This document shows positions 9,460-49,497 of a stretch of DNA of 64,000 nt, piece by piece. The notes beneath the pieces are model-generated. The model worked only from the letters and a program-made list of their open reading frames with translations, searched no databases and was not told the DNA's origin. Source of the stretch: a virus; IMG/VR virus record IMGVR_UViG_3300042892_004373, positions 1-64,000 of that record. One strand, given 5' to 3'. Each line of letters begins with the position of its first letter. Positions within the stretch are counted from its first letter, which is position 1. The position numbers were made by a program, and so were the translations under genes.

Positions 9460-10095
9460 TTATTTTGTTGTTAAAATTAATCTGTCGATTCCAAGTGCAA
9501 AACCAACCCCACCTTCATAAGAACCACCACCACAAATTTGTTTTTGTGCTCCTAATTCTGGACATGAGATTTCAAATCCTTTACCACCTTTGTAGTAGTC
9601 AAGTCCTCTTGTTGCATCTAAGTTTACTTCATAGTTATCAGTTGCTAATTCAATTAGTTTAGTTGCGATTTCTAACATTTCATCAGTCATATCTTGAGTT
9701 GGGTTGATTACTTCAACTCCGAATTGCGTGAATTGTCTGTATCTACCAGCTTGTGGTTTTTCACCTCTAAAACATTCTCCAATATAGAATAATTTAACAT
9801 TCTTAGTCATTTTAAATGTTTCGTTTGCAAGTTGTTGAACAACTGCTGTGTATTCTGGTGCTAAGCAAATGTCTCTGTTACCTCTATCAGTAAAAGTATA
9901 CATCATGTTGTTATTTTCTTCACCTACTTTACTAGCGAATGTTTCAGTTAGTTGAATAACTGGGATCATCATTTCTTGATAACCATAAGATTCCATAATC
10001 TCGATCATTTGATTTAGTAATCTTCTTTTGTTTCTGGCAGTTTCACCAAAAACTATCCTCGTACCTTTGTACGTTTTACTTGTCTTTATCTCCAT
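9460..10095 (-). CDS. hisS: Minimal histidyl-tRNA synthetase (catalytic core only)
   Basis: Class II motif 2 FRGEKPQAGRYRQFTQFGVE, RGLDYY, GGG.Y, motif 3 GFALGIDRL; stops 5 aa after motif 3. Confidence 0.85.
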   Translation of the reverse strand: MEIKTSKTYKGTRIVFGETARNKRRLLNQMIEIMESYGYQEMMIPVIQLTETFASKVGEENNNMMYTFTDRGNRDICLAPEYTAVVQQLANETFKMTKNVKLFYIGECFRGEKPQAGRYRQFTQFGVEVINPTQDMTDEMLEIATKLIELATDNYEVNLDATRGLDYYKGGKGFEISCPELGAQKQICGGGSYEGGVGFALGIDRLILTTK

Positions 10096-10120
10096 TTTAA
10101 TAATATATTTTTTGTTTAAT

Positions 10121-10240
10121 AAAAAAGCCCAGATCATTATAATCTGGGCTTATGTTTAAATTAGCAATTTTTAAGACATATACTTACGACCCAGATTTCT
10201 CTGTGTGATGATGTAGTTTATATGTTGTTTTCATTTTCAT
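10121..10240 (-). promoter_or_regulatory. Histidine attenuator: leader MKMKTTYKLHHHTEKSGS (10184-10240) plus terminator (10121-10152)
   Basis: CAT CAT CAC run; leader AUCUGGG is complementary to the terminator 5' arm CCCAGAU; TATATTTG box at 10245-10252. Confidence 0.85.
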
Positions 10241-10771: not shown

Positions 10772-13700
10772 TTAGTCATTATTTCCTAAACCTGCACCAC
10801 TTACCATCCATTTATCTGGTCCAATTTTCAATATTGTTGCCATTGAGTTATTTGGAATATAAAAGTCGTTACTTGTAGTATCAAATCCTGCACCCCATAA
10901 CTCAGTAGTATCACTATCATCAGTTCTAATATATGTCCAGCTATCACCGCTAACTACAGTAATCGCGGATCCTATAGGAAAAGGAACATTTCTATTTATA
11001 GGAATAATAACACTATAATTACTTTCAGTATCTTTATAGATATGTTTTCCAATATCACTTAGTTGTAAGTAATAATCATCATAAAATGGATGATAAACTT
11101 GAGGTATTACACCTGCACTAGAAGTTTGTTTTGTCCCATCTGAAAATACTATACCACTATCTACATCATTTATTCTATCTATATTATTATCTTTATTATA
11201 ATCACTATTACCGAAATAGAAATCTCTTGAATGTGTTATTGAATGTGTTCCAACTAATGGTGTGAATGTATCAAAATAACTTTGTGTTATTGATATTGAT
11301 CTTATTGAGTAATTACCTTCTAAATAGTTTGATACTCCTCCATAATTTACCAGTGAACCATCTGTAGGTAAATTTGCCACAAATGCGTTGTGATACTCAT
11401 TTGACATTACATCTGTATATCCTACTAGTGCTAACTTACTACCATCAAAGCTTATAGCTAATCCATTACTTTCCTCGATTAGGCTATAATCTTCTTTACC
11501 ACCTATAATATTACTCCAAATTAAGACACCGTCTGTGTTAAGTTTGAATAATCTTAATGCATCATCCTCAAAACCAAAACTACTTTCATAATCTGAAGTT
11601 AATACATATATATTATCATTAGAATCAGTTACTACACTACTTGTGTTCTCATCATCAGTTCTTTTTTGCCATAATAATTCACCATCAGTTGTTATCTTAG
11701 AGATTACTGTCTCATTATCATCATCACTATGGTGGGTTGTTACAATGCTATTAGTACCTAATATAGCAACAGACTTTCCTGAACAGTTGTCATCTACTTC
11801 ATTAAGTGCTTTAGTCCATAAGTGATCACCATCAGAATTAAATTTACTAAGAATTGCAATTTGTTCTCCACTTAATGATGATGTTAAACCACCACCATAT
11901 GCGTGACCAATTGCATATATATTGTTATCTGCATCAGTAGTAACAGAACTAAACTTATCACTATCATCATCTGTATTACCACCTAATGTTCTTTCCCAAT
12001 TTTCGGTATATATATAAGCTTCTGCTCCAATTGATTTATAGATTGACCAAGTTCCTGACGCACTAAAGTCAACTGATGTACTTATAGTTAAGTATAAACT
12101 TGAGGTACTACCTGTTCCTGATATACTTGGAATTTGGAAAAGTCCTGCATCATTTGAATTATTGACTAATATACAATCATTTGAACTTGTTCCTCCTAGT
12201 TTATTACCAGGTATGGTAATAATATCATTCAGTACATAACCAGATTGTGATCCAATAATATTTAAAACAGAATAAACTCCTGTAGTTGGATCATTAAATA
12301 CATCAAATGATGCACCTGATCCCTCTGTTGTTGAACCAGTTACTCCTATAAAACTTTGAGTTCCTGATGGTGATAGTCCAGTTGGTCCATTACCTGTAAT
12401 ACTTGCTGCTAATATTCCACCATTTGATGCTGTTGCTGTTTGTATAATAGTTGCATCATTATCTGGGGTAATACCACCTAAGTTTGTACCTGGTACAATT
12501 ATTGGTTTAAGTATATCTAGACTATATCCAGTACCTGGTGTATCTACACCAAGAATTGTATAAATACCGGTAGTATTATCTAATTGTATTGTAAATGATG
12601 CACCCACTCCACCTGGTGTTAGTGAACCTGTTACTCCAAAAAAGGTATTTACGTAAGTTAAATCTTCATCTCCTGTGATACCTGTACCACCAATAGACCA
12701 AGCACCATTATTATTTGGGTTCTCATTATTAATACTACTTGAAGATATAACTAAAGTACTAAATGTGCTACCAGAAAGAACTGATGAAGTTCCAATTACC
12801 CATTCAAAATATTCTGTCTCTTTTTGACCAACAATGATCAATTCATTATTACTATTAAAAGTCATATCATGTAGATAAATATCTCCTTGATTTTCAGATA
12901 TATTTATATCTTTTAATCTAATTACTTTTTTAATTTGAGCACTTTCTGTATCAATTCTTACGATAAGTCCTTCTGCAAAGTTATCCGGATATGTTTCACA
13001 TAAAACTACTAAATCACCATTTATAGGATCAATTTTTATTGATTTTGCTCTCCCATCTTCATTGTTATCATCATTAAAAATTGAAATCGACCATATTACA
13101 TCTCCAGTTTTGTTAAACTTTACTACAATTGGTCTGTTATCATCATGATCTTCACCAACACAATAAGTATTGTTATGAATATCCATTACAACAGATCTAA
13201 ATTCAATGTCATCATTGTAGTTATATAATGGTCCAAATACTGACATCCATCCTAAGGTATCTGTTTCTGGTAGAATTAAATCTTTATTAGATAATTCTAA
13301 TTTTGTATCTCCAAGTGATAATGTATTACCATCTGCAATTAAAACATTTACTTGTTTTGTACCATCACCATCAGCTCCGGTATCACCACTATACCAAATT
13401 TTATCAATATCTGTATTTATTGCAACCATTGCAAAAATACTTTCATTATATAAAGTAATATAACTACTAGATGTTCCAAATGAATTATCTTCAATTATTT
13501 CACCTGCACCATAGTTTATACCGTATGCAGTAAAGAATCTAGTACTTATATCTGTATTATTGTTTCCACCAACACTATATGTTCCTACACCACCTTCTAA
13601 TGGGCCGGTAAGTACATATAGGTCATATTGGGTATCCTGGTTATATTTTATAACTTGTCCTACTGATAGTGTTCCTGATATGATCTCTGTTACAGTAAGA

Positions 13701-17954: not shown

Positions 17955-18956
17955 TTAGTTTATTGCCAATCTTTTTGTTGATGTTTTACCATCTTCTGTA
18001 ATTTTTACAATATACATACCTGTTACTAAACTACTTACGTCTAATTGACTTTGTGTATTTTCTACTAAAACTTTTTTACCAACCATGTCATAAATCTCTA
18101 TATTTTTTGTAGAATCTAGATCAGTTGTAATATTTAAAATGTTTTTTGTTGGGTTTGGATAAACTTGTAATCCAGAGATTTGATTTTGATTAGTAGATAA
18201 AGATCCTGTTGGAGTAACTGATAAAAATGTATTTGATACACGTATTTCATCAATTTCAACATTACCAGATCCCGCTGTTGCAGTACCACCTTGTCTAATT
18301 ACAAAACCTGTAATCGTTGTGGGTGCCGCAGTAGTTCCTGTAGAATTTGTTACTGTTGCAGTTGGTTCGGTATTACCAGGTACTGGATTTACAAATAAAC
18401 TAGCAGTATTGGTTGATAATTCATACTTTACAACTAATAGGTGTGTACTGCCTACTAATAGATCACTTGTAAATGTTGGTGTTGCTGTACCACCACTATT
18501 ATTTAGTATTCCAACTTGAAAACCTGATGTGGCACCCTGTCTTGTATAAATTCTTCCTTGAAATGCGGTTGTTGTTGCACTTGCAACAGACGTTAATGAT
18601 AAACCGTAGCTTCCAGTTGTTGAAGTATTTGGATCTAATTGTGTTGCATCTAATACTTTAATTAGTACTGAGTAGTAGACAACTCCTGATAATGGTGTTG
18701 TTAGTGGAAAGTTCACATCTTCTGTATTACCTGCAATCATAGAGGTTCTATTACCTGTTGATGTTGCCAAACCAGGATAAGATAAACTGCTACCATTATC
18801 GCTAGATGAGGTAATTATTGATAATTGTCCGGGGGTTCCACTGTGTGTAGTCCAACCATTTGAGGTTAGTGTACCTGTTCCATTAAAAGGAATGTAGGTT
18901 TGACCGAAAGAAATAGTTGTCATAAGTAAGACAACTAAAGTTAAAAGTTTTTTCAT
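17955..18956 (-). CDS. Secreted protein with T9SS type-A sorting domain
   Basis: Signal peptide; C-terminal VYPNP, IYDMVGK, GMYIVKI, KRLAIN. Confidence 0.85.
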   Translation of the reverse strand: MKKLLTLVVLLMTTISFGQTYIPFNGTGTLTSNGWTTHSGTPGQLSIITSSSDNGSSLSYPGLATSTGNRTSMIAGNTEDVNFPLTTPLSGVVYYSVLIKVLDATQLDPNTSTTGSYGLSLTSVASATTTAFQGRIYTRQGATSGFQVGILNNSGGTATPTFTSDLLVGSTHLLVVKYELSTNTASLFVNPVPGNTEPTATVTNSTGTTAAPTTITGFVIRQGGTATAGSGNVEIDEIRVSNTFLSVTPTGSLSTNQNQISGLQVYPNPTKNILNITTDLDSTKNIEIYDMVGKKVLVENTQSQLDVSSLVTGMYIVKITEDGKTSTKRLAIN

Positions 18957-19027
18957 GTTTTTATAAGTTTTTATTTTTCTTTCTTTATACAATTTAGATA
19001 TTAAAAGTTTAAAAAATTTATAAAATA

Positions 19028-19062
19028 AAAAAGCCCCTAACTACTCAAAGTTAAGGGTTTTA
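19028..19062 (-). terminator. Probable terminator of the large ncRNA
   Basis: Imperfect hairpin followed by a U-run on the minus strand. Confidence 0.55.
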
Positions 19063-19085: not shown

Positions 19086-19925
19086 ATAAGGGGCTGAGAT
19101 TATGCCATCTTGTAAGAATCTTTTGAAGAATTATTGTTTCTCTTCGTATCCACAATCTTTTGGATTGTAATTCTCATTGAGGATTAGTTAGACTAATCAC
19201 TTCTTGAGGCTTCAACTACTCTCTTATTACTCAACTCTCTTCAAACTTGCGGTCTGATTAAGGGTTCGACCCCTTAGAGGTTTTTGGCAAGAATACGTCT
19301 CAACTTGCGATCTTGACGTGCACTGGACAACCCAGTACTATGTACTCAACTTTCGTTGAAGCCTGACAGACACTTTTGCTTTTTATGTTTAAATTTTACT
19401 TCAAATGTAAATTGCTTTTGTGTTCGTGGATGTGTCGAAGAAGTGGTCTGCCGTAAGCTTCGTTATCTTTTGAACAACGAAATACTAAACTCCTTCGTGA
19501 AGCCTCCCAGCCTCCATATTTTAAGACAACTTCAAACTAACGCCTTGGTAGACATTTAGTAGGGATAGTAGCAGCACCACCTGTTCTCTACCATTACCTT
19601 TCGGTTTTAAGTTACCTTTTATATTGGAAGTCGCAATCATATAGTTGGAGCCATATTTCTTGCAAAAATCCTATGAGTTATTCTTATTGGTGTTCCCACC
19701 TCAACCGGACAATCCACATTGCCACGATTACTCAACCACTTTTTCTACAGTGTTACCCTCGATACTGAAGGTTGAGTAATATCTCACTTGTGTACTCGAG
19801 CTCTTACGAGCCGCAGAACCATTTAACGTTGATTCCACTTTAGCCTACTTTCGTAGTTTATTTAACGACGATACACCGCCGATTATCATTTTACTAGCCA
19901 CCGAAGTGATTAGTTGGATAATACA
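19086..19925 (-). ncRNA. Large structured ncRNA, GOLLD-like (boundaries approximate)
   Basis: ~840-nt GC-elevated region with no credible ORF, many GNRA/UUCG hairpins, own TATCTTTG box (19967-19974), next to a tRNA cluster. Confidence 0.65.
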
Positions 19926-20022
19926 ATATTTTCAAAGAACGTATTCATTTTGTTTTTATTATAGAGCAAAGATAATAAAAGTTGTTTAAACTACCAAAAT
20001 TATTTTACTTTATTTTTAAAAA

Positions 20023-20131
20023 AATTAAGACCCTATTACAGGCAGTTGATTACCCCATTCTATTTTGACTTGGATGTTATAGCTTTCACTAATAAATTAG
20101 CTAGAATGCGTCAGCTCATTGAGTCTTAATT
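20023..20131 (-). ncRNA. ~110-nt interrupted rod-like RNA
   Basis: AAUUAAGACUC/GGGUCUUAAUU closing stem and CAUUCUA/UAGAAUG inner stem. Confidence 0.45.
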
Positions 20132-20135
20132 TTAG

Positions 20136-20232
20136 TAGTCTGTACGGGATTCGAACCCGTGTGACCAGCCGCCCCGAAGGACCGCTACCCGTCCTGACTC
20201 ACCGAAGTGAGTATCCGCTAGACGAACAGACC
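20136..20232 (-). ncRNA. tRNA-Glu-bodied RNA copy 1 (D-loop hairpin insert; anticodon arm capped by UUCG)
   Basis: GGUCUGUUCGUCUAGCGG...AGGAC...GGGUUCGAAUCCCGUACAGACUA. Confidence 0.8.
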
Positions 20233-20263
20233 GATAAGTAGTTGCCTACCTAGGTTTTATTTG

Positions 20264-20352
20264 TAGTCTGTACGGGATTCGAACCCGCGTTACCTCCTTC
20301 GAAGGGAGAAGTCCTGACTCACCGAGGTGAGTATCCACTAGACGAACAGACC
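20264..20352 (-). tRNA. tRNA-Glu-bodied RNA copy 2 with UCG (Arg) anticodon and D-loop insert
   Basis: Stem UCUCC/GGAGG, loop CUUCGAA; insert ACUCAC-CUCG-GUGAGU. Confidence 0.75.
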
Positions 20353-20442
20353 GAAGTGTCGTGTTTTGATTACACTAAAGATGAATACTTGTATAAGAAG
20401 TACCAACTTGTCAACATTACAGAAATGACATTTACACTTTAG

Positions 20443-20515
20443 TAGCGGGAGAAGGACTCGAACCTCCGACCTTATGGTTATGAGCCACACGAGCTACCAA
20501 CTGCTCTATCCCGCG
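20443..20515 (-). tRNA. Initiator-type tRNA-Met(CAT)
   Basis: CGCGGGA 5' end with C1xU72 mismatch, loop CUCAUAA; only two G-C pairs at the base of the anticodon stem. Confidence 0.9.
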
Positions 20516-20526
20516 ATATTTTATTG

Positions 20527-20642
20527 TAGTCTGTACGGGATTCGAACCCGCGTTCCTCTCTCGTGACTAAGAGAATGTCCTGTTTACTTTACTTTAATGC
20601 CGAGGCTTTTTGTTCAGTAAACGTCCACTAGACGAACAGACC
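20527..20642 (-). ncRNA. tRNA-Glu-bodied RNA copy 3 (long D-loop insert, 8-nt anticodon loop containing GUC)
   Basis: Same acceptor, D-stem and T-arm; insert closed by GUUUACU/AGUAAAC. Confidence 0.75.
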
Positions 20643-20764
20643 GAAGAGTTGTGCTACGTTTCTTACACCACGAGACGACATTTCAGCCACCACCTACTCT
20701 TATTTTGTTTGACAAAGATACGGTGACTTTTTTAATCTACCAAATCTTTTTTCAATTTTTTTGA

Positions 20765-20901
20765 CCGCATTGAGGGAGTCGAACCCAAATATAAATACAT
20801 TTACTAGTATTTATATTTATAATAACAAGATTAGAACCCATCCCGACTTCATACTAGAATATTAAATTATTATCTAGTTTACTAACTACTTGTTCAACGC
20901 G
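20765..20901 (-). ncRNA. Expanded tRNA-like RNA with possible CUA anticodon and long variable arm
   Basis: 8-bp acceptor CGCGUUGA/UCAAUGCG, G73, GGG-UUCGACU-CCC T-arm, loop UUCUAAU, 12-bp AU-rich variable hairpin. Confidence 0.55.
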
Positions 20902-20908
20902 AATGTTG

Positions 20909-21013
20909 TAGTCTGTAAGGGATTCGAACCCATGTTTACAATCTCTCCATATACCAGGATATTTGAGATTGTCGTCCTATTACCGAAGTAATATACCGCT
21001 AGACGAACAGACC
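20909..21013 (-). ncRNA. tRNA-Glu-bodied RNA copy 4 (UUCG D-loop insert, extended arm with no canonical anticodon loop)
   Basis: Insert UAUUAC-UUCG-GUAAUA; arm ACAAUCUC/GAGAUUGU. Confidence 0.75.
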
Positions 21014-21081
21014 ATTTTATTTTTGTTTGACAAAGATACGGTGACTTTTTTAATCTACGAAATCTTTTTTAATTTTTTTTG

Positions 21082-21168
21082 TGGGAAGAGAGGGATTCGA
21101 ACCACTCGAAGATATATAATCGACTACCTCACCGGTAGCCTACTTTAACCAGGCTTGTATATCTCCCC
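21082..21168 (-). tRNA. Atypical class II (Leu-like body) tRNA with anticodon loop CGGUGAG
   Basis: Acceptor GGGGAGA/UCUUCCC, A73, variable hairpin GAU-UAUAU-AUC, bulged T-stem. Confidence 0.65.
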
Positions 21169-21429
21169 TTATTTGTTTGACAAAGATACGGTGACTTTTT
21201 TAATCTACCAAATCTTTTTTAGATTTTTTTAATTCTTTTTCTTGTAATCTTAAAAGTTTACAAACTTCTGAATAGTGGTAATAAACTCCATCTTGTCCTT
21301 GAACACCTGTCGCATTTTCCATAATGAAATCCCCGATAGGCTTTTTTATATCTTCTAACATTGTTTCTTATTTAGAGTACAAAGATACAAAATTTTTTTA
21401 ATCTACCAAATCTTTTTTATTTTTTTTTT

Positions 21430-23274: not shown

Positions 23275-23465
23275 TAAGTGAGCTTAGCCGCGATTTTGTT
23301 TTATCCCATCATTTATCTTTGCATCAACCCGTTCTCATAGGGAAACCGACACCCTCGAATTGTTTGACTTGCTACTTCCTTAGTACAATCGACATTAGTC
23401 TCCTAAGTTAGGTTTTGTAGTCGCGAACTTCCTCTGTTTCCAGCGATAGGTTCTCTGCTTACTTA
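23275..23465 (-). ncRNA. rnpB: Minimal RNase P RNA (catalytic domain, ~40-nt residual S-domain)
   Basis: GAGGAAGUUCGCGA pairs with ACAAAAUCGCGGCU (P4 with bulged U); AGAUAAAUGAU; P1, P2 and GAAA-capped P3 present. Confidence 0.85.
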
Positions 23466-24371
23466 TTAAAATTGGTGTGTACCTTGATTTACGTTAAACA
23501 CGAAGATACCTTCGTCATACCACATATCTACTACACTTAATCTATCATCATAAACACAAAGTAAGTTATAATTTGGTTTAATATGATTTTCGTATATTTC
23601 TTTTTTAATTAAAGTATCTTTTCTATAATCATCTTTTGGTCTCATATACATTTCATCGAATTCAATACCGTGAAAGTCTAACCATTCCTCGGTAACTTCT
23701 CGACAAACTTCATCACGACCAGTTACGATAATTACTTTTCTACCTTTATCTTTATGAAATTGTAATTGTTCTGATACAATTTCGTTCAAATCATCTTTAT
23801 AAACTTGCATCCAATCGAATGGACCTCTACGACCCATAAGTGCAAGTGTACCATCGATGTCAAATATAACTGCACCTTGTTTAGTGGAGTTAAAATCTGG
23901 GATCAAATGAGGTCTTGTCATTTTTTTGACTGGTTGAAAGTCAAAAGAATCCATTAAAATTTTATATTCTTTATACATTCTATTGATAACAACAGGACCT
24001 ACAGACTTGTCTCTTTGTCTGTCTCGTTCTATCGCCTTGTCTTTTGATATATCAAAAACTTGATAGTCTATATCGGCACTAAACTTAAACTTCTCGATAA
24101 TGTTTTGGATATATTTATCTTTTAGATTAGTATTATCAACGATAACATTCATTTTTTTAAGTAATGATTGCTCAATTGTTGCATCAACTAATTCATTTAT
24201 TATATTCTCAACTTTATTTTCTACAACTCCAGAGTTTTTTAACATTTCTCTAAAGTCGTCTCTACTTACTCTAGTCCAATTATCATTTGTTTTCACAAAA
24301 TCTTTGGCCCATGTAGATTTGCCGGAGGCAGGTACTCCGATAAGTATTTTTATTTTTGTATTTGTCTTCAT
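23466..24371 (-). CDS. Polynucleotide kinase/3'-phosphatase (T4 PseT-like)
   Basis: P-loop GVPASGKST, RDDFR, HAD motif FDIDGT, YDDR. Confidence 0.92.
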   Translation of the reverse strand: MKTNTKIKILIGVPASGKSTWAKDFVKTNDNWTRVSRDDFREMLKNSGVVENKVENIINELVDATIEQSLLKKMNVIVDNTNLKDKYIQNIIEKFKFSADIDYQVFDISKDKAIERDRQRDKSVGPVVINRMYKEYKILMDSFDFQPVKKMTRPHLIPDFNSTKQGAVIFDIDGTLALMGRRGPFDWMQVYKDDLNEIVSEQLQFHKDKGRKVIIVTGRDEVCREVTEEWLDFHGIEFDEMYMRPKDDYRKDTLIKKEIYENHIKPNYNLLCVYDDRLSVVDMWYDEGIFVFNVNQGTHQF

Positions 24372-24433
24372 GATTTTATAATTTATACAAATGTAATCAT
24401 TTAAAATTAAAAAAACCACTCAAAGTGGTTTTT

Positions 24434-24643
24434 TTATCCTCCGTATGCATCGATTATGTAACCATGTTTAACTCTAAAGTTAATTCTATTAGGATTAGCA
24501 TCCATTTCTAGCATTTTTGATTGACCATTTTCTTCTGTTATTCTTACTATAAATCCACCATCTTTAGCGTATTGTGTAGCTTCTTCGATGGTTTTACCCT
24601 CATATTCTCCTCTTGTAATTAAACCAAAATTTCTTAATGCCAT
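24434..24643 (-). CDS. Small protein, protease-inhibitor I78-like
   Basis: MD.NPNRIN pattern. Confidence 0.45.
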   Translation of the reverse strand: MALRNFGLITRGEYEGKTIEEATQYAKDGGFIVRITEENGQSKMLEMDANPNRINFRVKHGYIIDAYGG

Positions 24644-24688
24644 AATTTTTATTATTTTTTCTATTATACAAAAAAAGATAAACAAAGT

Positions 24689-25333
24689 TTATCTTTTTAT
24701 TTCGGCTTTCTTCCAATTTCTAGTCCAGTGAACATCCGTGCTAACGTGGCCTTTTCTTACCCATTTCATTACATTATCTGCGAAGTCGTCATTGTGAAAC
24801 ATTCCTGCAGTTCTTACTACGATACCTTCTCTTTGTCCACCTAATTCAGATGGTTTACTAACTAAATCTTCTACAATTTGTTGTAATTCTTTCACGGAGT
24901 TTACTACACCTTTGAATAAAACAGGTACAGTTGGTATATCTAATAGGTAAGAATACTCTTCTACTTTTTCCCAAGGGATCCAAATATCATTATCTCTGAT
25001 ACCAAAGATATAAAAGTAAGATTCTAGATTAGAGTATTCGATAGAGTGAATACCTTCCATATTTTCTCCGAATAAGAAAACACCGTCTCCTAATTCATCT
25101 TCAACTGATAGTTTGTGTAATTGTCTAACTTCTCTTGACCAAGCAGATGTAGTAAAAGTTGCGTGACTTCTTGCATAAACTCCTTCATCTGTCATTCCAC
25201 AATTTTCACCGTCTAATTTCTCAGTAATAACAATTTCAGTACCTAATAATGATTCTACATTATCAGATATTCTATCATCATTTGTTGATCCTGGTGACCA
25301 TGGCAGGTGGTAGGTTCGATTATACTTACTCAT
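24689..25333 (-). CDS. RNA ligase family protein
   Basis: TEKLDGEN adenylation motif, FGEN, EGIVVR, KWVR. Confidence 0.88.
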   Translation of the reverse strand: MSKYNRTYHLPWSPGSTNDDRISDNVESLLGTEIVITEKLDGENCGMTDEGVYARSHATFTTSAWSREVRQLHKLSVEDELGDGVFLFGENMEGIHSIEYSNLESYFYIFGIRDNDIWIPWEKVEEYSYLLDIPTVPVLFKGVVNSVKELQQIVEDLVSKPSELGGQREGIVVRTAGMFHNDDFADNVMKWVRKGHVSTDVHWTRNWKKAEIKR

Positions 25334-25878: not shown

Positions 25879-26721
25879 TTATTTACTAAACTCGTCGAAC
25901 TTTAAAAGTTTTGACTCAATTACTACTTCTTTAGTAGAACCGGCACCACCTCTTTTCTCGATGGCTTTCCATTTCTTATCTAAGAAAGCTAACTTAGCTT
26001 TATCGATTTTACAGTTTCTATCTGAAATGTTTCCTTCGTTAAAAAGAGAGATCATTTCATCAATACTTAATGTAGGGTGTTTTTTATCAAATAAAGGGTC
26101 TGGATGTGACCAACCGAATTTGAATAACCAGTTTAACATAGCGGCTTTGCTGAAGTCTTGGTAGTCTGCAGTAGTACCGTTACCTTTTCTCTTAGATAAT
26201 TTAGCATTACCCTCGAAAAGTAAACCAGCGTGTGTGATTGTTGGGAATGTCTTATCTCCTTCTACTTCACAAATCTTATCCCAGATAATTCTTTGTTTAG
26301 CCTCATTTGCAATGTGGTCAACACCTCTGATGATGTTAGTTACATCGTAATCGTAGTCGTCTAAGATAGAACAGAAGTTGTAAGTAGGGAATCCGTTATT
26401 TCTAAGGATAACCATTGAGTACTCTCCCATATCTAACTCGTAACCATTCTCAGTTTTAGTACCGATTTTCTCAGCCACTTCTCTGTAACGGTCTAATCTT
26501 TCAGATTGTCTGAATGTGATGTCGTGATCTAAACCAAAATCCGCCATTTGTTCATAGATATAGTCAATCCATTCTGGTTTATTTCTTTCTTGATCAGTAT
26601 CATCAATTCTTAAAATGAATGTACCGTTATTCGCTCTTGCTTGAAGCCAAACAAGTAATGCCGTTCTTAAAGTTCCTAAGTGGAAAAAGCCAGTTGGAGA
26701 GGGTGCTACTCTTGTTACCAT
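25879..26721 (-). CDS. Minimal glutamyl-tRNA synthetase / GluQ-RS-like catalytic core
   Basis: RVAPSPTG.FHLGT, RIDDTD, PTYNF, IRGVDH, KLSKR; no anticodon-binding domains. Confidence 0.85.
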   Translation of the reverse strand: MVTRVAPSPTGFFHLGTLRTALLVWLQARANNGTFILRIDDTDQERNKPEWIDYIYEQMADFGLDHDITFRQSERLDRYREVAEKIGTKTENGYELDMGEYSMVILRNNGFPTYNFCSILDDYDYDVTNIIRGVDHIANEAKQRIIWDKICEVEGDKTFPTITHAGLLFEGNAKLSKRKGNGTTADYQDFSKAAMLNWLFKFGWSHPDPLFDKKHPTLSIDEMISLFNEGNISDRNCKIDKAKLAFLDKKWKAIEKRGGAGSTKEVVIESKLLKFDEFSK

Positions 26722-37903: not shown

Positions 37904-38746
37904 TTAGTCTTGTAATTCAAGTTGTTCTTGATTTTGTTTTTGAAGTAACTCCATAGCTCTTGCTAATCTTGTTAAACCAATTCCTGCACCAAATCTTGGA
38001 AAGAAGTCAAATTTTAAGAACTCTTCTAGTTCTGCTTCTACTCTTTCTTTTCCAAATAATTCAAATAGTTTTTTAGAATATCCACCATTTTCTATTGTAT
38101 AGAACATTTTTCTCATAGATTCAACATCACAACTTCTTTCTGCAGCGCCTATTGTTTCTTGTCCATATAATATTATATCAACTTTATTGAATATATCATC
38201 TTTTTGATTTTGCATGTTCCAAAATGGATTAGTTCTTAGTGGAAAGTTTTGAAGAGAAACACAATGACTTACTTCATTCCACATTTTAGTTTCATGTTCA
38301 TTTTCTAAAATTGATACGTCTCCATATTCTTTACAAGTTTTGTTGTAGTCCATTTCAACAGGTAAACCAAATCCTAAATACTCAAGAAGTTCTTTTTCTA
38401 ATAGAATTAAGTCTTTATATTTACCTTTTGATTCAAATTCAAACATTGGAAAGATTAGTTCATGTCTTCCAGGAATTGGATTTTTTTCTGCTCTGTAACT
38501 TGTAGATATACAAAAAACTCCATCCCAAGTAGGGTTTTTTAATAATTCATACTCGAGCCACATTTGTCCTGTTTGTGGTAACGGCCATATCTCACCATTG
38601 TATTCAAAAGTTGATACTGAGTGTGGGTTTTCACAAGCTGCTAAAATTGATAGTCTTGATTGTGTTGGTACTTCTACGAAGTTTTTTTCCAAAAAAAATT
38701 CTCTTAGTTTCTGAACTAGAGAATTGTACATTAAAGTGTTTGTCAT
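37904..38746 (-). CDS. AsnRS-like catalytic core (class IIb, no OB domain); possibly asparagine synthetase-like
   Basis: FVEVP, LPQTGQMWLE, SYRAE..RH...FEFE, GAGIGLTRL. Confidence 0.78.
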   Translation of the reverse strand: MTNTLMYNSLVQKLREFFLEKNFVEVPTQSRLSILAACENPHSVSTFEYNGEIWPLPQTGQMWLEYELLKNPTWDGVFCISTSYRAEKNPIPGRHELIFPMFEFESKGKYKDLILLEKELLEYLGFGLPVEMDYNKTCKEYGDVSILENEHETKMWNEVSHCVSLQNFPLRTNPFWNMQNQKDDIFNKVDIILYGQETIGAAERSCDVESMRKMFYTIENGGYSKKLFELFGKERVEAELEEFLKFDFFPRFGAGIGLTRLARAMELLQKQNQEQLELQD

Positions 38747-48318: not shown

Positions 48319-49497
48319 TTATACTTTATCTACTGGAAATAGTCCAATTTTTTTCATACCTATTTGTAAATCTGTCAATAAGTCAGAAAAAATCTTTTTG
48401 TTTACTTCATTATCTTTTATGTATAATTTCTCATACAATTTATTTATATTCTTACAATGATTTACTAAAGCATCGAATAATATATTCGGTGATAAATTAG
48501 ATTTGGTTTTTAATTCAGCAAATTCTAATTGTTTAGAATAGAAGTTTTCTTTATCTTGTACTTCAACACCACAGCTTTTAATATGTGCCATAGTATAACT
48601 TAGATATAAACCTAAAGATAACTTTGGATTACCAATCAATTTTGTATCTATTGACTTACTAGAAGTCGGTCCAGATTTAAGTATTTGTCCTGCAATTATA
48701 TTATAAACTAATTTTAAATCATTATTAAATAATGGTAATAAACTATTTATAAAATCAGTCATGTAAATAACATTACCTTCACTACTAGACATTTTCTTAC
48801 CATCTAATTGAACTAAGCCAAGACCAACGTGATTTGTAGTAGGAAATAACTTCTTTAAAGATTTAAAGTGATTATCTTGTTCTACTCCTGTTAGATATAA
48901 CGTAGAAGCATTTAATTTACTAGCTAGAGCTACATCTTGGTAGAAGTAAGAAGTAGAACCAGTACTTTTCACACCTACTAATTTCTCGTCTCCCAAATCG
49001 AAGATTTTAGAACCTTCATAAGTACCTTCACCTTCTTTTAATAAACTTTCATCTTGTAATTTCATTTCAGATGCAAAGAACATTTCATCTACATTATAGT
49101 TAAAATTTTTACAATACTCAAAATAAGATTTTAAAGCATCATCTTTTTGAACTGCTCCTTCTAAAGTATCACCAAAAATGACAATAAATTTATTACCGAC
49201 ACCTAATTTTTGAAAAGCATTTGCTAATACAAGGTTGGAAAAGTGACCAACGTGTAAATGTTTATTTAAGTTTGGACTAAACCCGTCAATATAATCATAC
49301 TTTTCAGGTTGATTAAACATATCAGAGATTTTTGTATCATCATTTAAGATGATGTTTGTGTATTTACCAGAATCTTCCGTTTTTAAATTCCAGTACTTAC
49401 ACCAATTTATAATTTCATCAGAGGGTTTTCCGAATACACAGAAGTTAAAACCTAAATCTGATGGAGTTGTCTTTATTTTATTTATATCTATTTTCAT
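48319..49497 (-). CDS. argS: Shortened arginyl-tRNA synthetase
   Basis: FSPNLNKHLHVGH, KSTG..SY..QD, EQ..HF, KMSS, YLSY; 392 aa. Confidence 0.8.
   Translation of the reverse strand: MKIDINKIKTTPSDLGFNFCVFGKPSDEIINWCKYWNLKTEDSGKYTNIILNDDTKISDMFNQPEKYDYIDGFSPNLNKHLHVGHFSNLVLANAFQKLGVGNKFIVIFGDTLEGAVQKDDALKSYFEYCKNFNYNVDEMFFASEMKLQDESLLKEGEGTYEGSKIFDLGDEKLVGVKSTGSTSYFYQDVALASKLNASTLYLTGVEQDNHFKSLKKLFPTTNHVGLGLVQLDGKKMSSSEGNVIYMTDFINSLLPLFNNDLKLVYNIIAGQILKSGPTSSKSIDTKLIGNPKLSLGLYLSYTMAHIKSCGVEVQDKENFYSKQLEFAELKTKSNLSPNILFDALVNHCKNINKLYEKLYIKDNEVNKKIFSDLLTDLQIGMKKIGLFPVDKV

What the first reader, a model, noticed from the sequence alone, without database searches (positions are those of the whole stretch)
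20136..21013. Family of four tRNA-Glu-bodied RNAs with D-loop hairpin inserts and replaced anticodon arms
Seen: copies at 20136-20232, 20264-20352, 20527-20642 and 20909-21013 keep near-identical acceptor (GGUCUGU/ACAGACU, A73), D-stem (GUCU/GGAC) and T-arm. Each has a well-paired hairpin inserted after the D-loop GG, capped by UUCG or CUCG, with different stems. The anticodon arms all differ: a UUCG tetraloop, a 7-nt loop with UCG (Arg), an 8-nt loop with GUC, and an extended arm. Pairing maintained despite divergence argues against decay. Inference: these are non-decoding aminoacyl carriers or decoys resistant to anticodon nucleases, plausibly substrates of the anticodon-blind GluRS core at 25879-26721. 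Copy 2 could insert Glu at CGA codons.
Basis: partly seen in the sequence, partly recalled or inferred. Interest (0 to 1): 0.88.

Follow-up and report, generated by a model that had tools for sequence, protein, structure and literature searches.

The report
Phage tRNA-Glu look-alikes beside GOLLD
A giant lake phage carries four genes for RNAs shaped like the glutamate tRNA, each with an extra hairpin at the elbow and, in three of four, no readable anticodon; the same apparently undescribed RNA family recurs in many phages next to the cage-forming GOLLD RNA, so it probably imitates a tRNA rather than reading codons.

Summary
Four minus-strand genes (20136-20232, 20264-20352, 20527-20642, 20909-21013) share a tRNA-Glu acceptor stem, D stem, T arm and A73. 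Each has a hairpin inserted in the D loop after GG, and each has a different arm where the anticodon arm should be. They are not decaying tRNAs. Their GC is 41-60% in a 30% GC phage. Bacteroidota-type promoter boxes precede the array. Pairing covaries across 41 distinct relatives (15 of 20 pairs, 0 of 500 shuffles). RNA-library contigs hold copies 1, 3 and 4 with inserts intact. In this window the array lies directly upstream of GOLLD (19091-19497). Most relatives keep UUC or CUC in a closed 4-6-nt loop, and few have a canonical loop. The proposed partner, the 280-aa GluRS core, is real but not obligately linked to the RNAs. I read them as non-decoding tRNA-Glu mimics of the GOLLD/tRNA island, with the biochemical role unproven. 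Copy 2 (loop CUUCGAA) might still decode. This scan found the same family before on other DNA (e1-5857470, e1-6013106, e1-6078429). I found no paper describing it.

The parts
20136..20232 (-). Copy 1, 97 nt. tRNA-Glu body; D-loop hairpin at 20195-20214 (UUCG tip); position 26, the arm that replaces the anticodon arm (a bulged stem capped by UUCG) and the variable region at 20161-20190.
   Evidence: (76.6 bits). An RNA-library contig spans it whole in 2 runs (records 5 and 15).
20264..20352 (-). Copy 2, 89 nt. D-loop hairpin at 20315-20334 (CUCG tip). Within 20289-20310, a 5-bp stem UCUCC/GGAGG with the 7-nt loop CUUCGAA (U33, UCG, A37) lies between position 26 and the variable region. This is the only copy with a canonical-looking anticodon loop.
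   Evidence: RF00005 26.5 bits; 85.8 bits.
20527..20642 (-). Copy 3, 116 nt. 44-nt D-loop insert at 20581-20624. Within 20552-20576 (position 26, arm and variable region), the arm has the 8-nt loop UAGUCACG.
   Evidence: (77.7 bits). RNA-library contigs cover it (records 6 and 32).
20909..21013 (-). Copy 4, 105 nt. D-loop hairpin at 20978-20995 (UUCG tip). Within 20934-20973 (position 26, arm and variable region), an extended 8-bp arm with a conserved inner module CCUGGUAUAUGGAGAG. T stem has a U.U mismatch.
   Evidence: RF00005 21.5 bits; 75.1 bits.
20713..20744 (-). Promoter-like box TTTG-N20-TATCTTTG, ahead of a roughly 60-nt conserved leader, then copy 3, tRNA-Met, copy 2 and copy 1.
   Evidence: The window has 15 such boxes on the minus strand and 0 on the plus strand; shuffles give a mean of 3.76 for both strands. 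The consensus is recalled, not taken from a call.
21031..21062 (-). The same box with TTTC in place of TTTG, 17 nt ahead of copy 4.
20442..20515 (-). Ordinary tRNA-Met (CAU) inside the array. A tRNA-Met accompanies the family in most related loci.
   Evidence: (61.2 bits).
19091..19497 (-). Conserved 3' domain of GOLLD RNA. The whole RNA runs from about 19960, with its own promoter box at 19967-19998, to the terminator at 19034-19057.
   Evidence: RF02032, 324 bits, E 4.9e-92. RNA-library contigs cover it.
21082..21168 (-). A further tRNA-like gene with a long variable arm and A73. Its anticodon position can close to a 7-bp stem with a 5-nt loop (G at position 33). Its own promoter box lies at 21181-21212.
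   Evidence: RF00005 27.9 bits, below the cut-off of 29.
20765..20850 (-). Unexplained conserved element with a T-arm-like GGGUUCGACUCCC and an AT-rich hairpin, between copy 4 and the next promoter box.
   Evidence: (conserved in L005).
25879..26721 (-). 280-aa GluRS catalytic core. HLGT and KLSKR motifs are present. It has no anticodon-binding domain and most of the connective insert is missing.
   Evidence: PF00749, 7.4e-45; gltX_bact 204 bits, below the cut-off of 290; GluQRS 121 bits.
23466..25333 (-). Polynucleotide kinase-phosphatase (23466-24419) and RNA ligase (24689-25333). This is tRNA-repair-type context.

Best explanation
The four genes encode non-decoding tRNA-Glu mimics that belong to the phage's GOLLD/tRNA RNA island.

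Shown:
- Each keeps the full upper body and core of a tRNA-Glu: a 7-bp acceptor stem, A73, U8, the D stem with U11-A24 and U13.G22, the GG of the D loop, a 4-5-nt variable region ending in AC, and T loop UUCGAAU.
- Each carries a hairpin grafted into the variable part of the D loop after GG.
- Each carries a stable hairpin where the anticodon arm should be.
- Promoter-type boxes lie ahead of the array, which sits on the same strand as GOLLD, directly upstream of it.

Inferred:
- The RNAs fold into an L shape with the extra hairpin projecting from the outer corner.
- They are cut at G1 by RNase P and given CCA like tRNAs.
- They are then recognised through the tRNA-Glu 'augmented D helix' by a glutamate-specific tRNA-binding enzyme. 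In this phage lineage the candidate is the anticodon-domain-less GluRS core 5.6 kb away, which would not need the lost anticodon.
- The closed or replaced anticodon arm keeps them out of decoding.

I cannot decide whether they work charged (as Glu carriers), as competitors for tRNA-binding proteins, or together with the GOLLD cage. I lean towards a role tied to GOLLD, because that linkage is the most widely conserved.
For: Structure and selection:
- Searches give the shared fold and the covariation: 97.1% of cells paired, 15 of 20 pairs with changes on both sides, all 4 pairs of the D-insert helix covarying, 0 of 500 shuffles as good.
- GC is 41-60% against 29.7% for the window.
- Promoter boxes precede the array.
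- Orthologues of copy 4 in L007 keep the 8-bp arm although 4 of its pairs have changed on both sides (sequences and folds).

Breadth:
- 30 parsed RNAs from 16 viral loci plus the window. 29 of the 30 D inserts fold alone into a hairpin.
- 59 further RNAs parsed in 46 of 80 metagenome loci.
- Among representatives of 185,579 cellular species, bacterial-type members appear only in three short MAG contigs.

Non-decoding:
- Canonical 7-nt Glu loops occur only in L019, L021 and L136.
- Most members hold UUC or CUC in 4-6-nt loops or in CUUUUCA.
- Copies 1, 3 and 4 of the window have no anticodon-like loop.

GOLLD link:
- Of 61 loci with the RNA, 26 have GOLLD in the fetched stretch, always on the same strand.
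- Of the 24 loci with at least 1500 nt on both sides, 15 have GOLLD.
- The RNA lies 5-289 nt after the GOLLD 3' domain or 498-1724 nt before it (Rfam confirmation).

[quoted passage not shown] U11-A24 and U13.G22 are present in 41 of 41 rows.

GluRS core. It is present in all five closest RNA-bearing records, G021-G025.

RNA libraries: contigs hold copies 1, 3 and 4 unspliced, with no joint that removes an insert.
Against: - Nothing here shows 5'/3' maturation, CCA addition, charging or any binding partner.
- The RNA-library data are assembled contigs and may include DNA.
- The GOLLD link is one-sided. In 39 other GOLLD loci picked by a GOLLD motif, no model hit exceeded 42.6 bits, so most GOLLD RNAs lack this family.
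- 9 of the 24 well-flanked RNA loci have no GOLLD.
- The GluRS-core link is weak. 20 of 25 records with the core lack long members. Many of these are fragments, but G005 (89% complete) and G013 (98%) are not.
- Near-complete RNA-bearing records G038 and G026 have no GluRS homologue.
- Copy 2 here and one L007 copy (CUUAGAA) keep canonical 7-nt loops and might decode.
- Ascertainment: the collection scans fixed TCGTCTAG, AGGAC and GGTTCGAATCC. Invariance of the D stem and T loop, and the restriction to a Glu body, are therefore partly built in.
- Loci from three collections are not all independent.
Confidence: 0.4

Rival explanations
1. Decoys or sponges against tRNA-targeting host immunity. 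The mimics would offer the tRNA body (acceptor, elbow, T arm) to host tRNases or tRNA-modifying toxins without being needed for translation. They would act alongside the phage's RNA ligase and kinase-phosphatase repair pair.
For: - Repair-type genes lie 2.5-4 kb away.
- The genes are multi-copy, with their own promoters.
- Anticodon loops are closed or replaced, and D hairpins vary widely, as an arms race would produce.
- Phage tRNAs that escape anticodon nucleases through loop changes are in print. For PMC10264068 I saw the title and the start of the abstract only, in the listing. That listing also names defence nucleases that cut tRNA arms or tails.
Against: - A decoy for an anticodon nuclease should keep the target loop. 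Copies 1, 3 and 4 do not.
- No defence system or nuclease target is identified.
- The restriction to a tRNA-Glu body and the GOLLD synteny are not explained.
Confidence: 0.2
2. Processing punctuation. The tRNA-like fold recruits RNase P and 3' processing enzymes to cut polycistronic RNA-island transcripts and to make the GOLLD ends, as the mascRNA element does for MALAT1. The hairpins would be passengers.
For: - In L014, L153, L022/L056, L231 and L250 the RNA starts 5-11 nt after the GOLLD 3' domain.
- RNA-library contigs run continuously from GOLLD through copy 1.
Against: - In this window the copies lie upstream of GOLLD, which has its own promoter box and terminator.
- Four to six paralogues with class-specific, conserved and covarying arms are more than punctuation needs.
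- An ordinary tRNA would do the job.
Confidence: 0.15
3. Real decoding tRNAs with unusual architecture. Copy 2 would read CGA, charged with Arg or Glu. Relatives with UUC or CUC would read Glu codons. The D hairpin would be an identity or anti-identity element for an orthogonal phage GluRS.
For: - Copy 2 has the loop CUUCGAA with U33 and A37 on a 5-bp stem.
- L019, L021 and L136 have canonical CUC loops together with a D insert.
- Three RNA-bearing records encode full-length GluRS-like ORFs.
Against: - Copies 1, 3 and 4, and most relatives, have 4-6-nt, 8-nt or hairpin-only arms.
- CGA is a minor codon, 21 of 364 Arg codons.
- The 10-nt palindrome CCUUCGAAGG in copy 2 can close its loop.
Confidence: 0.08
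4. Y-RNA-like partners of a phage Ro60 (TROVE) protein, as bacterial YrlA RNAs carry a tRNA-like domain.
For: - 4 of 5 near-complete distant RNA-bearing records (G021, G036, G038, G026) encode a 488-492-aa TROVE protein.
- YrlA RNAs mimic tRNA and are RNase P and CCA-enzyme substrates (PMC4201824, abstract and outline).
Against: - There is no TROVE gene in this 73-kb record.
- There is none in G022 (60% complete), G023, G024, G032 or G028 (100% complete).
- The four positives are only two lineages.
- There is no Rfam Y-RNA hit.
- The RNA ends sit at the acceptor stem, not at a Ro-binding stem.
Confidence: 0.05
5. Intron-bearing or decaying tRNA-Glu genes. Either the inserts are spliced out to give ordinary tRNAs, or the copies are pseudogenes.
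For: - Archaeal tRNA-Glu genes with D-loop inserts turned up in the same pattern scan.
- Related phage loci hold tRNAs with inserts of about 30 nt in the anticodon loop (L017:4384-4487; L168:10357-10459).
- An RNA ligase and a kinase-phosphatase are encoded nearby.
Against: - Removing the D hairpin would still leave non-canonical arms in copies 1, 3 and 4.
- By eye, no bulge-helix-bulge motif flanks the inserts.
- No joint removes an insert in 4 RNA libraries.
- Covariation, GC content and promoter boxes argue against decay.
Confidence: 0.04

Closest known systems
Canonical bacterial and phage tRNA-Glu (Rfam RF00005)
   Same: Acceptor stem, D stem GUCU/GGAC with U11-A24 and U13.G22, GG in the D loop, short variable region, T arm and A73. 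A related phage record (G017) has a normal 73-nt tRNA-Glu(UUC) with the identical acceptor stem and the T arm of copy 1.
   Different: The D loop is expanded by a 14-44-nt hairpin (over 100 nt in L097). The anticodon arm is replaced or its loop is closed. All four window copies score below the Rfam cut-off.
tRNAs next to or nested in GOLLD RNA (RF02032)
   Same: Same-strand neighbours of GOLLD in a phage tRNA island. The literature notes that GOLLD lies near tRNA islands, downstream of a tRNA-Met, and that tRNAs are embedded in its linker (passages of 10.1101/2024.12.08.627333, and of PMC12990946).
   Different: Those reports concern ordinary tRNAs (Met, Phe). A tRNA-Glu-derived, anticodon-less, D-hairpin family is not mentioned in the passages I read.
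mascRNA / MEN-beta tRNA-like elements of MALAT1 and NEAT1
   Same: A tRNA-shaped, non-decoding RNA next to a long structured non-coding RNA. In several relatives it lies 5-11 nt after the GOLLD 3' domain.
   Different: In this window the copies lie upstream with promoter boxes of their own, in 4 paralogues with distinct arms. The comparison is by recall, plus one mention in PMC9976931.
YrlA, the bacterial Y RNA with a tRNA-like domain (PMC4201824)
   Same: A non-coding RNA that mimics tRNA. Found in phages too. Sits in an RNA-repair-type gene context.
   Different: No Ro60 gene in this record, no Rfam hit, and a different topology: the ends are at the acceptor stem.
Engineered 'tRNA scaffold' chimeras (recalled, not looked up)
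   Same: The anticodon arm of a tRNA is replaced by an arbitrary hairpin, while the body gives processing and stability.
   Different: Those are synthetic. Here the arrangement is natural, is specific to a Glu body, and has a second graft in the D loop.

Membership tests
tRNA (RF00005) / tRNA-Glu | Cloverleaf with a 7-bp acceptor stem, 4-bp D stem, 5-bp T stem and T loop UUCGAAU | tested here: met
tRNA (RF00005) / tRNA-Glu | Reaches the Rfam gathering score (29 bits) | tested here: not met
   copy 2 scores 26.5 bits, copy 4 scores 21.5 bits, and copies 1 and 3 have no match at E up to 10.
tRNA (RF00005) / tRNA-Glu | 7-nt anticodon loop with U33 and purine 37 on a 5-bp stem, with a Glu anticodon | tested here: not met
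   Only copy 2 has such a loop, and it reads UCG, not UUC or CUC.
tRNA (RF00005) / tRNA-Glu | [quoted passage not shown] | tested here: met
   UA in 41 of 41 rows and UG in 41 of 41 rows; variable region UAAC, GAAC or AAAC in copies 2-4, UCAC in copy 1. The determinants are taken from PMC9976931. The D stem was partly fixed by the search pattern.
tRNA (RF00005) / tRNA-Glu | Aminoacylation and use on the ribosome | not testable with these tools
   No biochemical data. The RNA libraries were available only as contigs.
GOLLD-associated tRNA island | Same-strand neighbour of a GOLLD RNA | tested here: met
   (324 bits at 19091-19497); 26 of 61 loci, all on the same strand.
YrlA / bacterial Y RNA | Ro60 (TROVE) gene in the genome and a Ro-binding stem formed by the RNA ends | tested here: not met
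   no TROVE gene in the 73-kb record, which is only 26% complete. No Y-RNA family match.
mascRNA-like 3'-end element | Lies directly at the 3' end of the long RNA and defines it by RNase P cleavage | tested here: not met
   The window copies lie upstream of GOLLD, which has its own terminator. The position is met only in relatives. Cleavage is not testable.
Intron-bearing tRNA (archaeal bulge-helix-bulge or group I) | A splice motif at the insert borders, and a spliced product | tested here: inconclusive
   No bulge-helix-bulge motif by eye. The inserts (14-44 nt) are far too short for group I introns. No joint removes an insert in 4 RNA libraries. Contigs drop rare forms.

The most novel reading that the evidence does not exclude
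The mimics, the GOLLD cage RNA and the phage's set of synthetase cores stripped of their anticodon-binding parts (GluRS, HisRS-like, a class I core and a class II D/K/N core, all in this window) form an aminoacyl-RNA system that works without anticodons. Under this reading, tRNA-Glu-shaped carriers are charged by acceptor and D-helix identity alone and act with or inside the GOLLD nanocage, not on the ribosome. The elbow hairpin and the variable arm would act as address tags that set each paralogue's partner.
Probability: 0.1. Interest if true: 0.95.

Novelty: new variant of a known kind. Interest (0 to 1): 0.72.

Why it matters
GOLLD is one of the largest bacterial and phage non-coding RNAs. 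It is now known to build a 14-mer nanocage, but it has no known function or cargo (passages of 10.1101/2024.12.08.627333). A conserved, phage-specific family of tRNA-Glu look-alikes sits on the same strand within 5 nt to about 1.7 kb of GOLLD. That gives a concrete candidate partner to test by co-assembly, pull-down or co-deletion.

The family also shows that tRNA genes can be rebuilt in nature as scaffolds. The body is kept, the anticodon is closed or swapped, and a hairpin is grafted at the elbow. Standard tRNA finders and Rfam miss these genes, so phage tRNA counts and 'tRNA island' annotations are incomplete. Together with the truncated synthetases in the same window, this makes it possible to test whether aminoacylation without anticodon recognition is used in present-day biology.

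Tried and rejected
1. Cultured-phage relatives. blastn of 20100-21200 against 50,697 phage records matched only the tRNA-Met part, 72 records. No cultured relative was found.

2. Base-pairing between the mimics and GOLLD. The longest complementary runs were 8-9 nt, no better than shuffles (65-149 of 200 shuffles reached the observed length). Rejected.

3. Link to a possible reduced RNase P RNA.
- 23276-23460(-) gives a weak full-length match to RF00373 (25.3 bits), and homologues exist in 6 related contigs (8 loci).
- A genome-wide RF00373 search over 15 records did not recover even the window's own candidate. That search was insensitive, so it gives no conclusion on co-occurrence.

4. Ro60/TROVE. 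Absent from this record. Present in 4 of 5 distant near-complete records and in 1 of 17 others. I kept it only as a weak rival.

5. Mini-GluRS as an obligate partner. Rejected. One 95-nt hit in G015 (12108-12202, 47.9 bits) was not inspected.

6. Expression. Only Logan contigs were available. No listed piece covers 20308-20381, which includes most of copy 2. Depths cannot rank genes. A joint 20754->21169 in one contig (depth 6) joins the repeated promoter regions, and I read it as a strain variant.

7. Rows dropped.
- L015, L020 and L023, where the pattern spanned two ordinary tRNAs.
- Before the counts, RNAs with archaeal-type acceptors (AGCC.., AGTCC..), and loci L008 and L016 as duplicates.
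- Alignment A2 still contains 4 ordinary tRNAs and some duplicates; identical rows are counted once.
- L013 and L018 failed my parsing regex but are family members.
- L197 and L236 look mis-parsed.

8. Literature. Searches found no description of this family. Supplements were closed and may hold tRNA lists that I could not see.
Full report
**What is there.** The window is part of a 73,060-base viral record rated 26% complete, that is, a jumbo phage. Its GC is 29.7%.

On the minus strand between 21212 and 19034 lies an RNA island. Reading in the direction of transcription it holds:
- a promoter-like box (21181-21212);
- a long-variable-arm tRNA-like gene (21082-21168);
- a near-identical box (21031-21062);
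- copy 4 (20909-21013);
- an unexplained T-arm-bearing element (20765-20850);
- a box (20713-20744) and a roughly 60-nt leader;
- copy 3 (20527-20642);
- tRNA-Met (20442-20515);
- copy 2 (20264-20352);
- copy 1 (20136-20232);
- a box (19967-19998);
- GOLLD RNA, whose Rfam 3' domain is 19091-19497 (324 bits);
- a terminator (19034-19057).

The box TTTG-N17-22-TAnnTTTG occurs 15 times on the minus strand and never on the plus strand, while shuffles give 3.76 for both strands together. I recall this as the Bacteroidota promoter consensus. A protein with a Por secretion tail at 17955-18992 fits such a host.

**Check of the observation.** A parse of each copy gives the same acceptor stem (GGUCUGU/ACAGACU with G1.U72), A73, U8-C9, D stem GUCU/GGAC, D-loop AG(C/U)GG, a 4-nt variable region (UAAC, GAAC or AAAC) in copies 2-4 (UCAC in copy 1), and T loop UUCGAAU.

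After the D-loop GG each copy has a hairpin. In copies 1, 2 and 4 it is 14-16 paired-and-loop nucleotides within an 18-20-nt insert, tipped by UUCG, CUCG and UUCG. In copy 3 it is 44 nt with internal loops, tipped by CUCG.

MFE folds reproduce the five-armed cloverleaf (z -1.1 to -2.9). All four are invisible or sub-threshold to ARAGORN and Rfam.

**Relatives.** An exact-pattern scan of viral contigs found 13 more copies in three contigs. A looser pattern required only the Glu-type D arm, at least 14 nt inside the D loop, and the T loop. It found 22 viral stretches. I dropped three of these because they span two ordinary tRNAs.

I parsed 30 RNAs. In 29 of them the D insert alone folds into a hairpin. 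The acceptor and T stems differ between lineages by compensatory changes.

A covariance model (R1) aligned 48 hits, 41 of them distinct. On that alignment:
- 97.1% of cells pair;
- 15 of 20 pairs changed on both sides, including all four modelled pairs of the D-insert helix;
- 0 of 500 shuffles reach this;
- slid partners give 29-52% paired.

The alignment was fitted to the model, and it holds 4 ordinary tRNAs. The D stem and T loop were fixed by the search pattern, so the informative helices are the acceptor stem, the T stem and the insert.

Within orthologous classes the arms are also kept. Copy 4 and its L007 orthologue both form an 8-bp stem although four of the pairs differ on both sides, and all four class members keep CCUGGUAUAUGGAGAG. 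D-insert types and arm types are recombined between phages.

The same pattern in 185,579 cellular species gave 74 stretches. Only three short MAG contigs hold bacterial-type members, two of them with GOLLD. The rest are archaeal tRNA-Glu genes with D-loop inserts, or other matches. It added 59 parsed RNAs in 46 loci.

**Can they decode?**
- Canonical 7-nt Glu loops are rare (L019, L021, L136).
- The commonest form keeps UUC or CUC in a loop of 4-6 nt closed by extra pairs (UUUUCG, UUUUCA, CUUUCA, CCUCAA), or in CUUUUCA with a pyrimidine at position 37.
- Others are plain hairpins.
- In the window's lineage the arms are the most divergent.
- Copy 2 (CUUCGAA) and one L007 copy (CUUAGAA) look decodable. 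CGA is 21 of 364 Arg codons in 28 ORFs.

So the family as a whole is derived from tRNA-Glu but mostly cannot read codons in the normal way.

**Context: GOLLD.** Rfam finds GOLLD beside the RNA in the window, L005, L007, L009, L014, L017, L022, L025, L026, L016/L056, L097 and L153.

With an nhmmer profile of these GOLLD domains:
- 26 of 61 RNA-bearing loci have GOLLD in the fetched stretch, always on the same strand;
- 15 of the 24 loci with at least 1500 nt on both sides have it;
- the RNA lies 5-289 nt downstream of the 3' domain or 498-1724 nt upstream of it, and in L269 and L022/L056 on both sides.

These loci come from three collections and are not all independent. The converse does not hold: 39 other GOLLD loci have no hit above 42.6 bits. 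The literature passages I read say only that GOLLD lies near tRNA islands, downstream of a tRNA-Met, with tRNAs sometimes in its linker.

**Context: GluRS core.** ORF 25879-26721 matches the GluRS catalytic domain. It aligns to solved GluRS structures in two blocks that skip about residues 101-176 and everything after about residue 318, and it keeps HLGT and KLSKR.

It recurs in 25 viral loci. Only 5 of these 25 records (G021-G025) have long D-insert members. The others have ordinary 71-73-nt tRNA-Glu genes, an anticodon-less 71-nt form without the D insert (G015), or nothing.

None of 13 more distant RNA-bearing records has the core. Three have a 500-543-aa GluRS-like ORF.

According to PMC9976931 (passages), E. 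coli GluRS relies strongly on U34, U35, C36 and A37, and also on U11-A24, U13-G22:A46 and the missing residue 47. The mimics keep the second set and, in this window, none of the first. That fits an enzyme without an anticodon domain, but it does not prove it.

The window also encodes other truncated synthetase cores (9460-10137, 32294-33550, 37904-38746) and an RNA ligase plus kinase-phosphatase.

**Expression.** The stretch was found in 20 public runs, 6 of them RNA libraries from freshwater or estuary samples.
- In four RNA libraries, contigs cover GOLLD.
- Two contigs from two runs span 19677-20293 and 19677-20244, so they hold copy 1 with both grafts.
- Others cover copy 3 and most of copy 4.
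- No joint removes an insert.

Contigs cannot show ends, strand or level, and DNA may be present in these libraries.

**Reading.** The genes are functional tRNA-Glu mimics. Decay and splicing are unlikely. The best-conserved associations are the tRNA-Glu body itself and the GOLLD neighbourhood. The GluRS-core link holds only in this lineage.

I therefore commit, at about 0.4, to non-decoding mimics that are matured like tRNAs and recognised through the Glu-type D helix, with a role tied to GOLLD. Decoy, punctuation, decoding and Y-RNA-like readings are the rivals.

Earlier follow-ups in this scan reached the same family-level verdict on other DNA. My additions are:
- the test and weakening of the GluRS-core link;
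- the quantified same-strand GOLLD synteny;
- the Ro60 lead;
- the RNA-library contigs.

Noticed in passing
window 23276-23460 (-): A candidate 185-nt RNase P RNA. It gives a full-length but weak match to archaeal RNase P (RF00373, 25.3 bits, cut-off 84), with the specificity-domain region reduced to about 36 nt. It lies directly after the kinase-phosphatase gene. Homologues exist in 6 related contigs (8 loci). An elbow-blind RNase P would suit tRNAs with an elbow hairpin, but I could not test co-occurrence.
   Followed up: partly
window 9460-10137, 32294-33550, 37904-38746, 48319-49497 (all -): More truncated synthetase-like cores: HisRS-like (225 aa), class I I/L/M/V-type (418 aa), class II D/K/N-type (280 aa), and a 392-aa ORF with only a faint class I match.
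   Followed up: partly
window 21082-21168 (-): A tRNA-like gene with a long variable arm and A73. Position 33 is G, and the anticodon position can close into a 7-bp stem with a 5-nt loop. It has its own promoter box. It may be a second kind of anticodon-less mimic (Leu-type body).
   Followed up: partly
window 20765-20850 (-) and 20643-20712 (-): Two conserved non-coding pieces without an explanation. One is an element with a T-arm-like GGGUUCGACUCCC plus an AT-rich hairpin. The other is a roughly 60-nt leader (AAGAGU...ACUCUU stem) ahead of copy 3. In L005 and L007 the same leader precedes other paralogues.
   Followed up: no
window about 31600-31700 (-): A short tRNA-like RNA with a perfect T arm and the loop CUCUAAA (CUA), behind a promoter box at 31713. 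It was seen in my T-arm scan and noted by another first-stage reader.
   Followed up: no
L017:4384-4487 and L168:10357-10459: Phage tRNAs of 103-104 nt with an insert of about 30 nt inside the anticodon loop. That is far too short for a group I intron. Both lie in GOLLD-bearing loci.
   Followed up: no
L190:4256-4342 and L161:1288-1374: 87-nt tRNAs with a CAU anticodon and a long variable arm, near GOLLD. This is an unusual architecture for tRNA-Met.
   Followed up: no
G021, G036, G038, G026, G006: 488-492-aa Ro60 (TROVE) proteins are encoded in jumbo-phage records that also carry the mimic and GOLLD. G006 is a fragment with a 365-aa open frame. They are absent from the window's own lineage as far as it is sequenced.
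   Followed up: partly
L262 (2960 nt): Six tandem copies of the mimic in under 3 kb. Their arms are nearly identical, with a CUUUU/UUUUC loop, but their D-loop hairpins differ.
   Followed up: no
window 20754 / 21169: One RNA-library contig (depth 6) joins these two points and skips 414 nt between the repeated promoter regions. This is probably a strain that lacks copy 4 and its neighbours.
   Followed up: no
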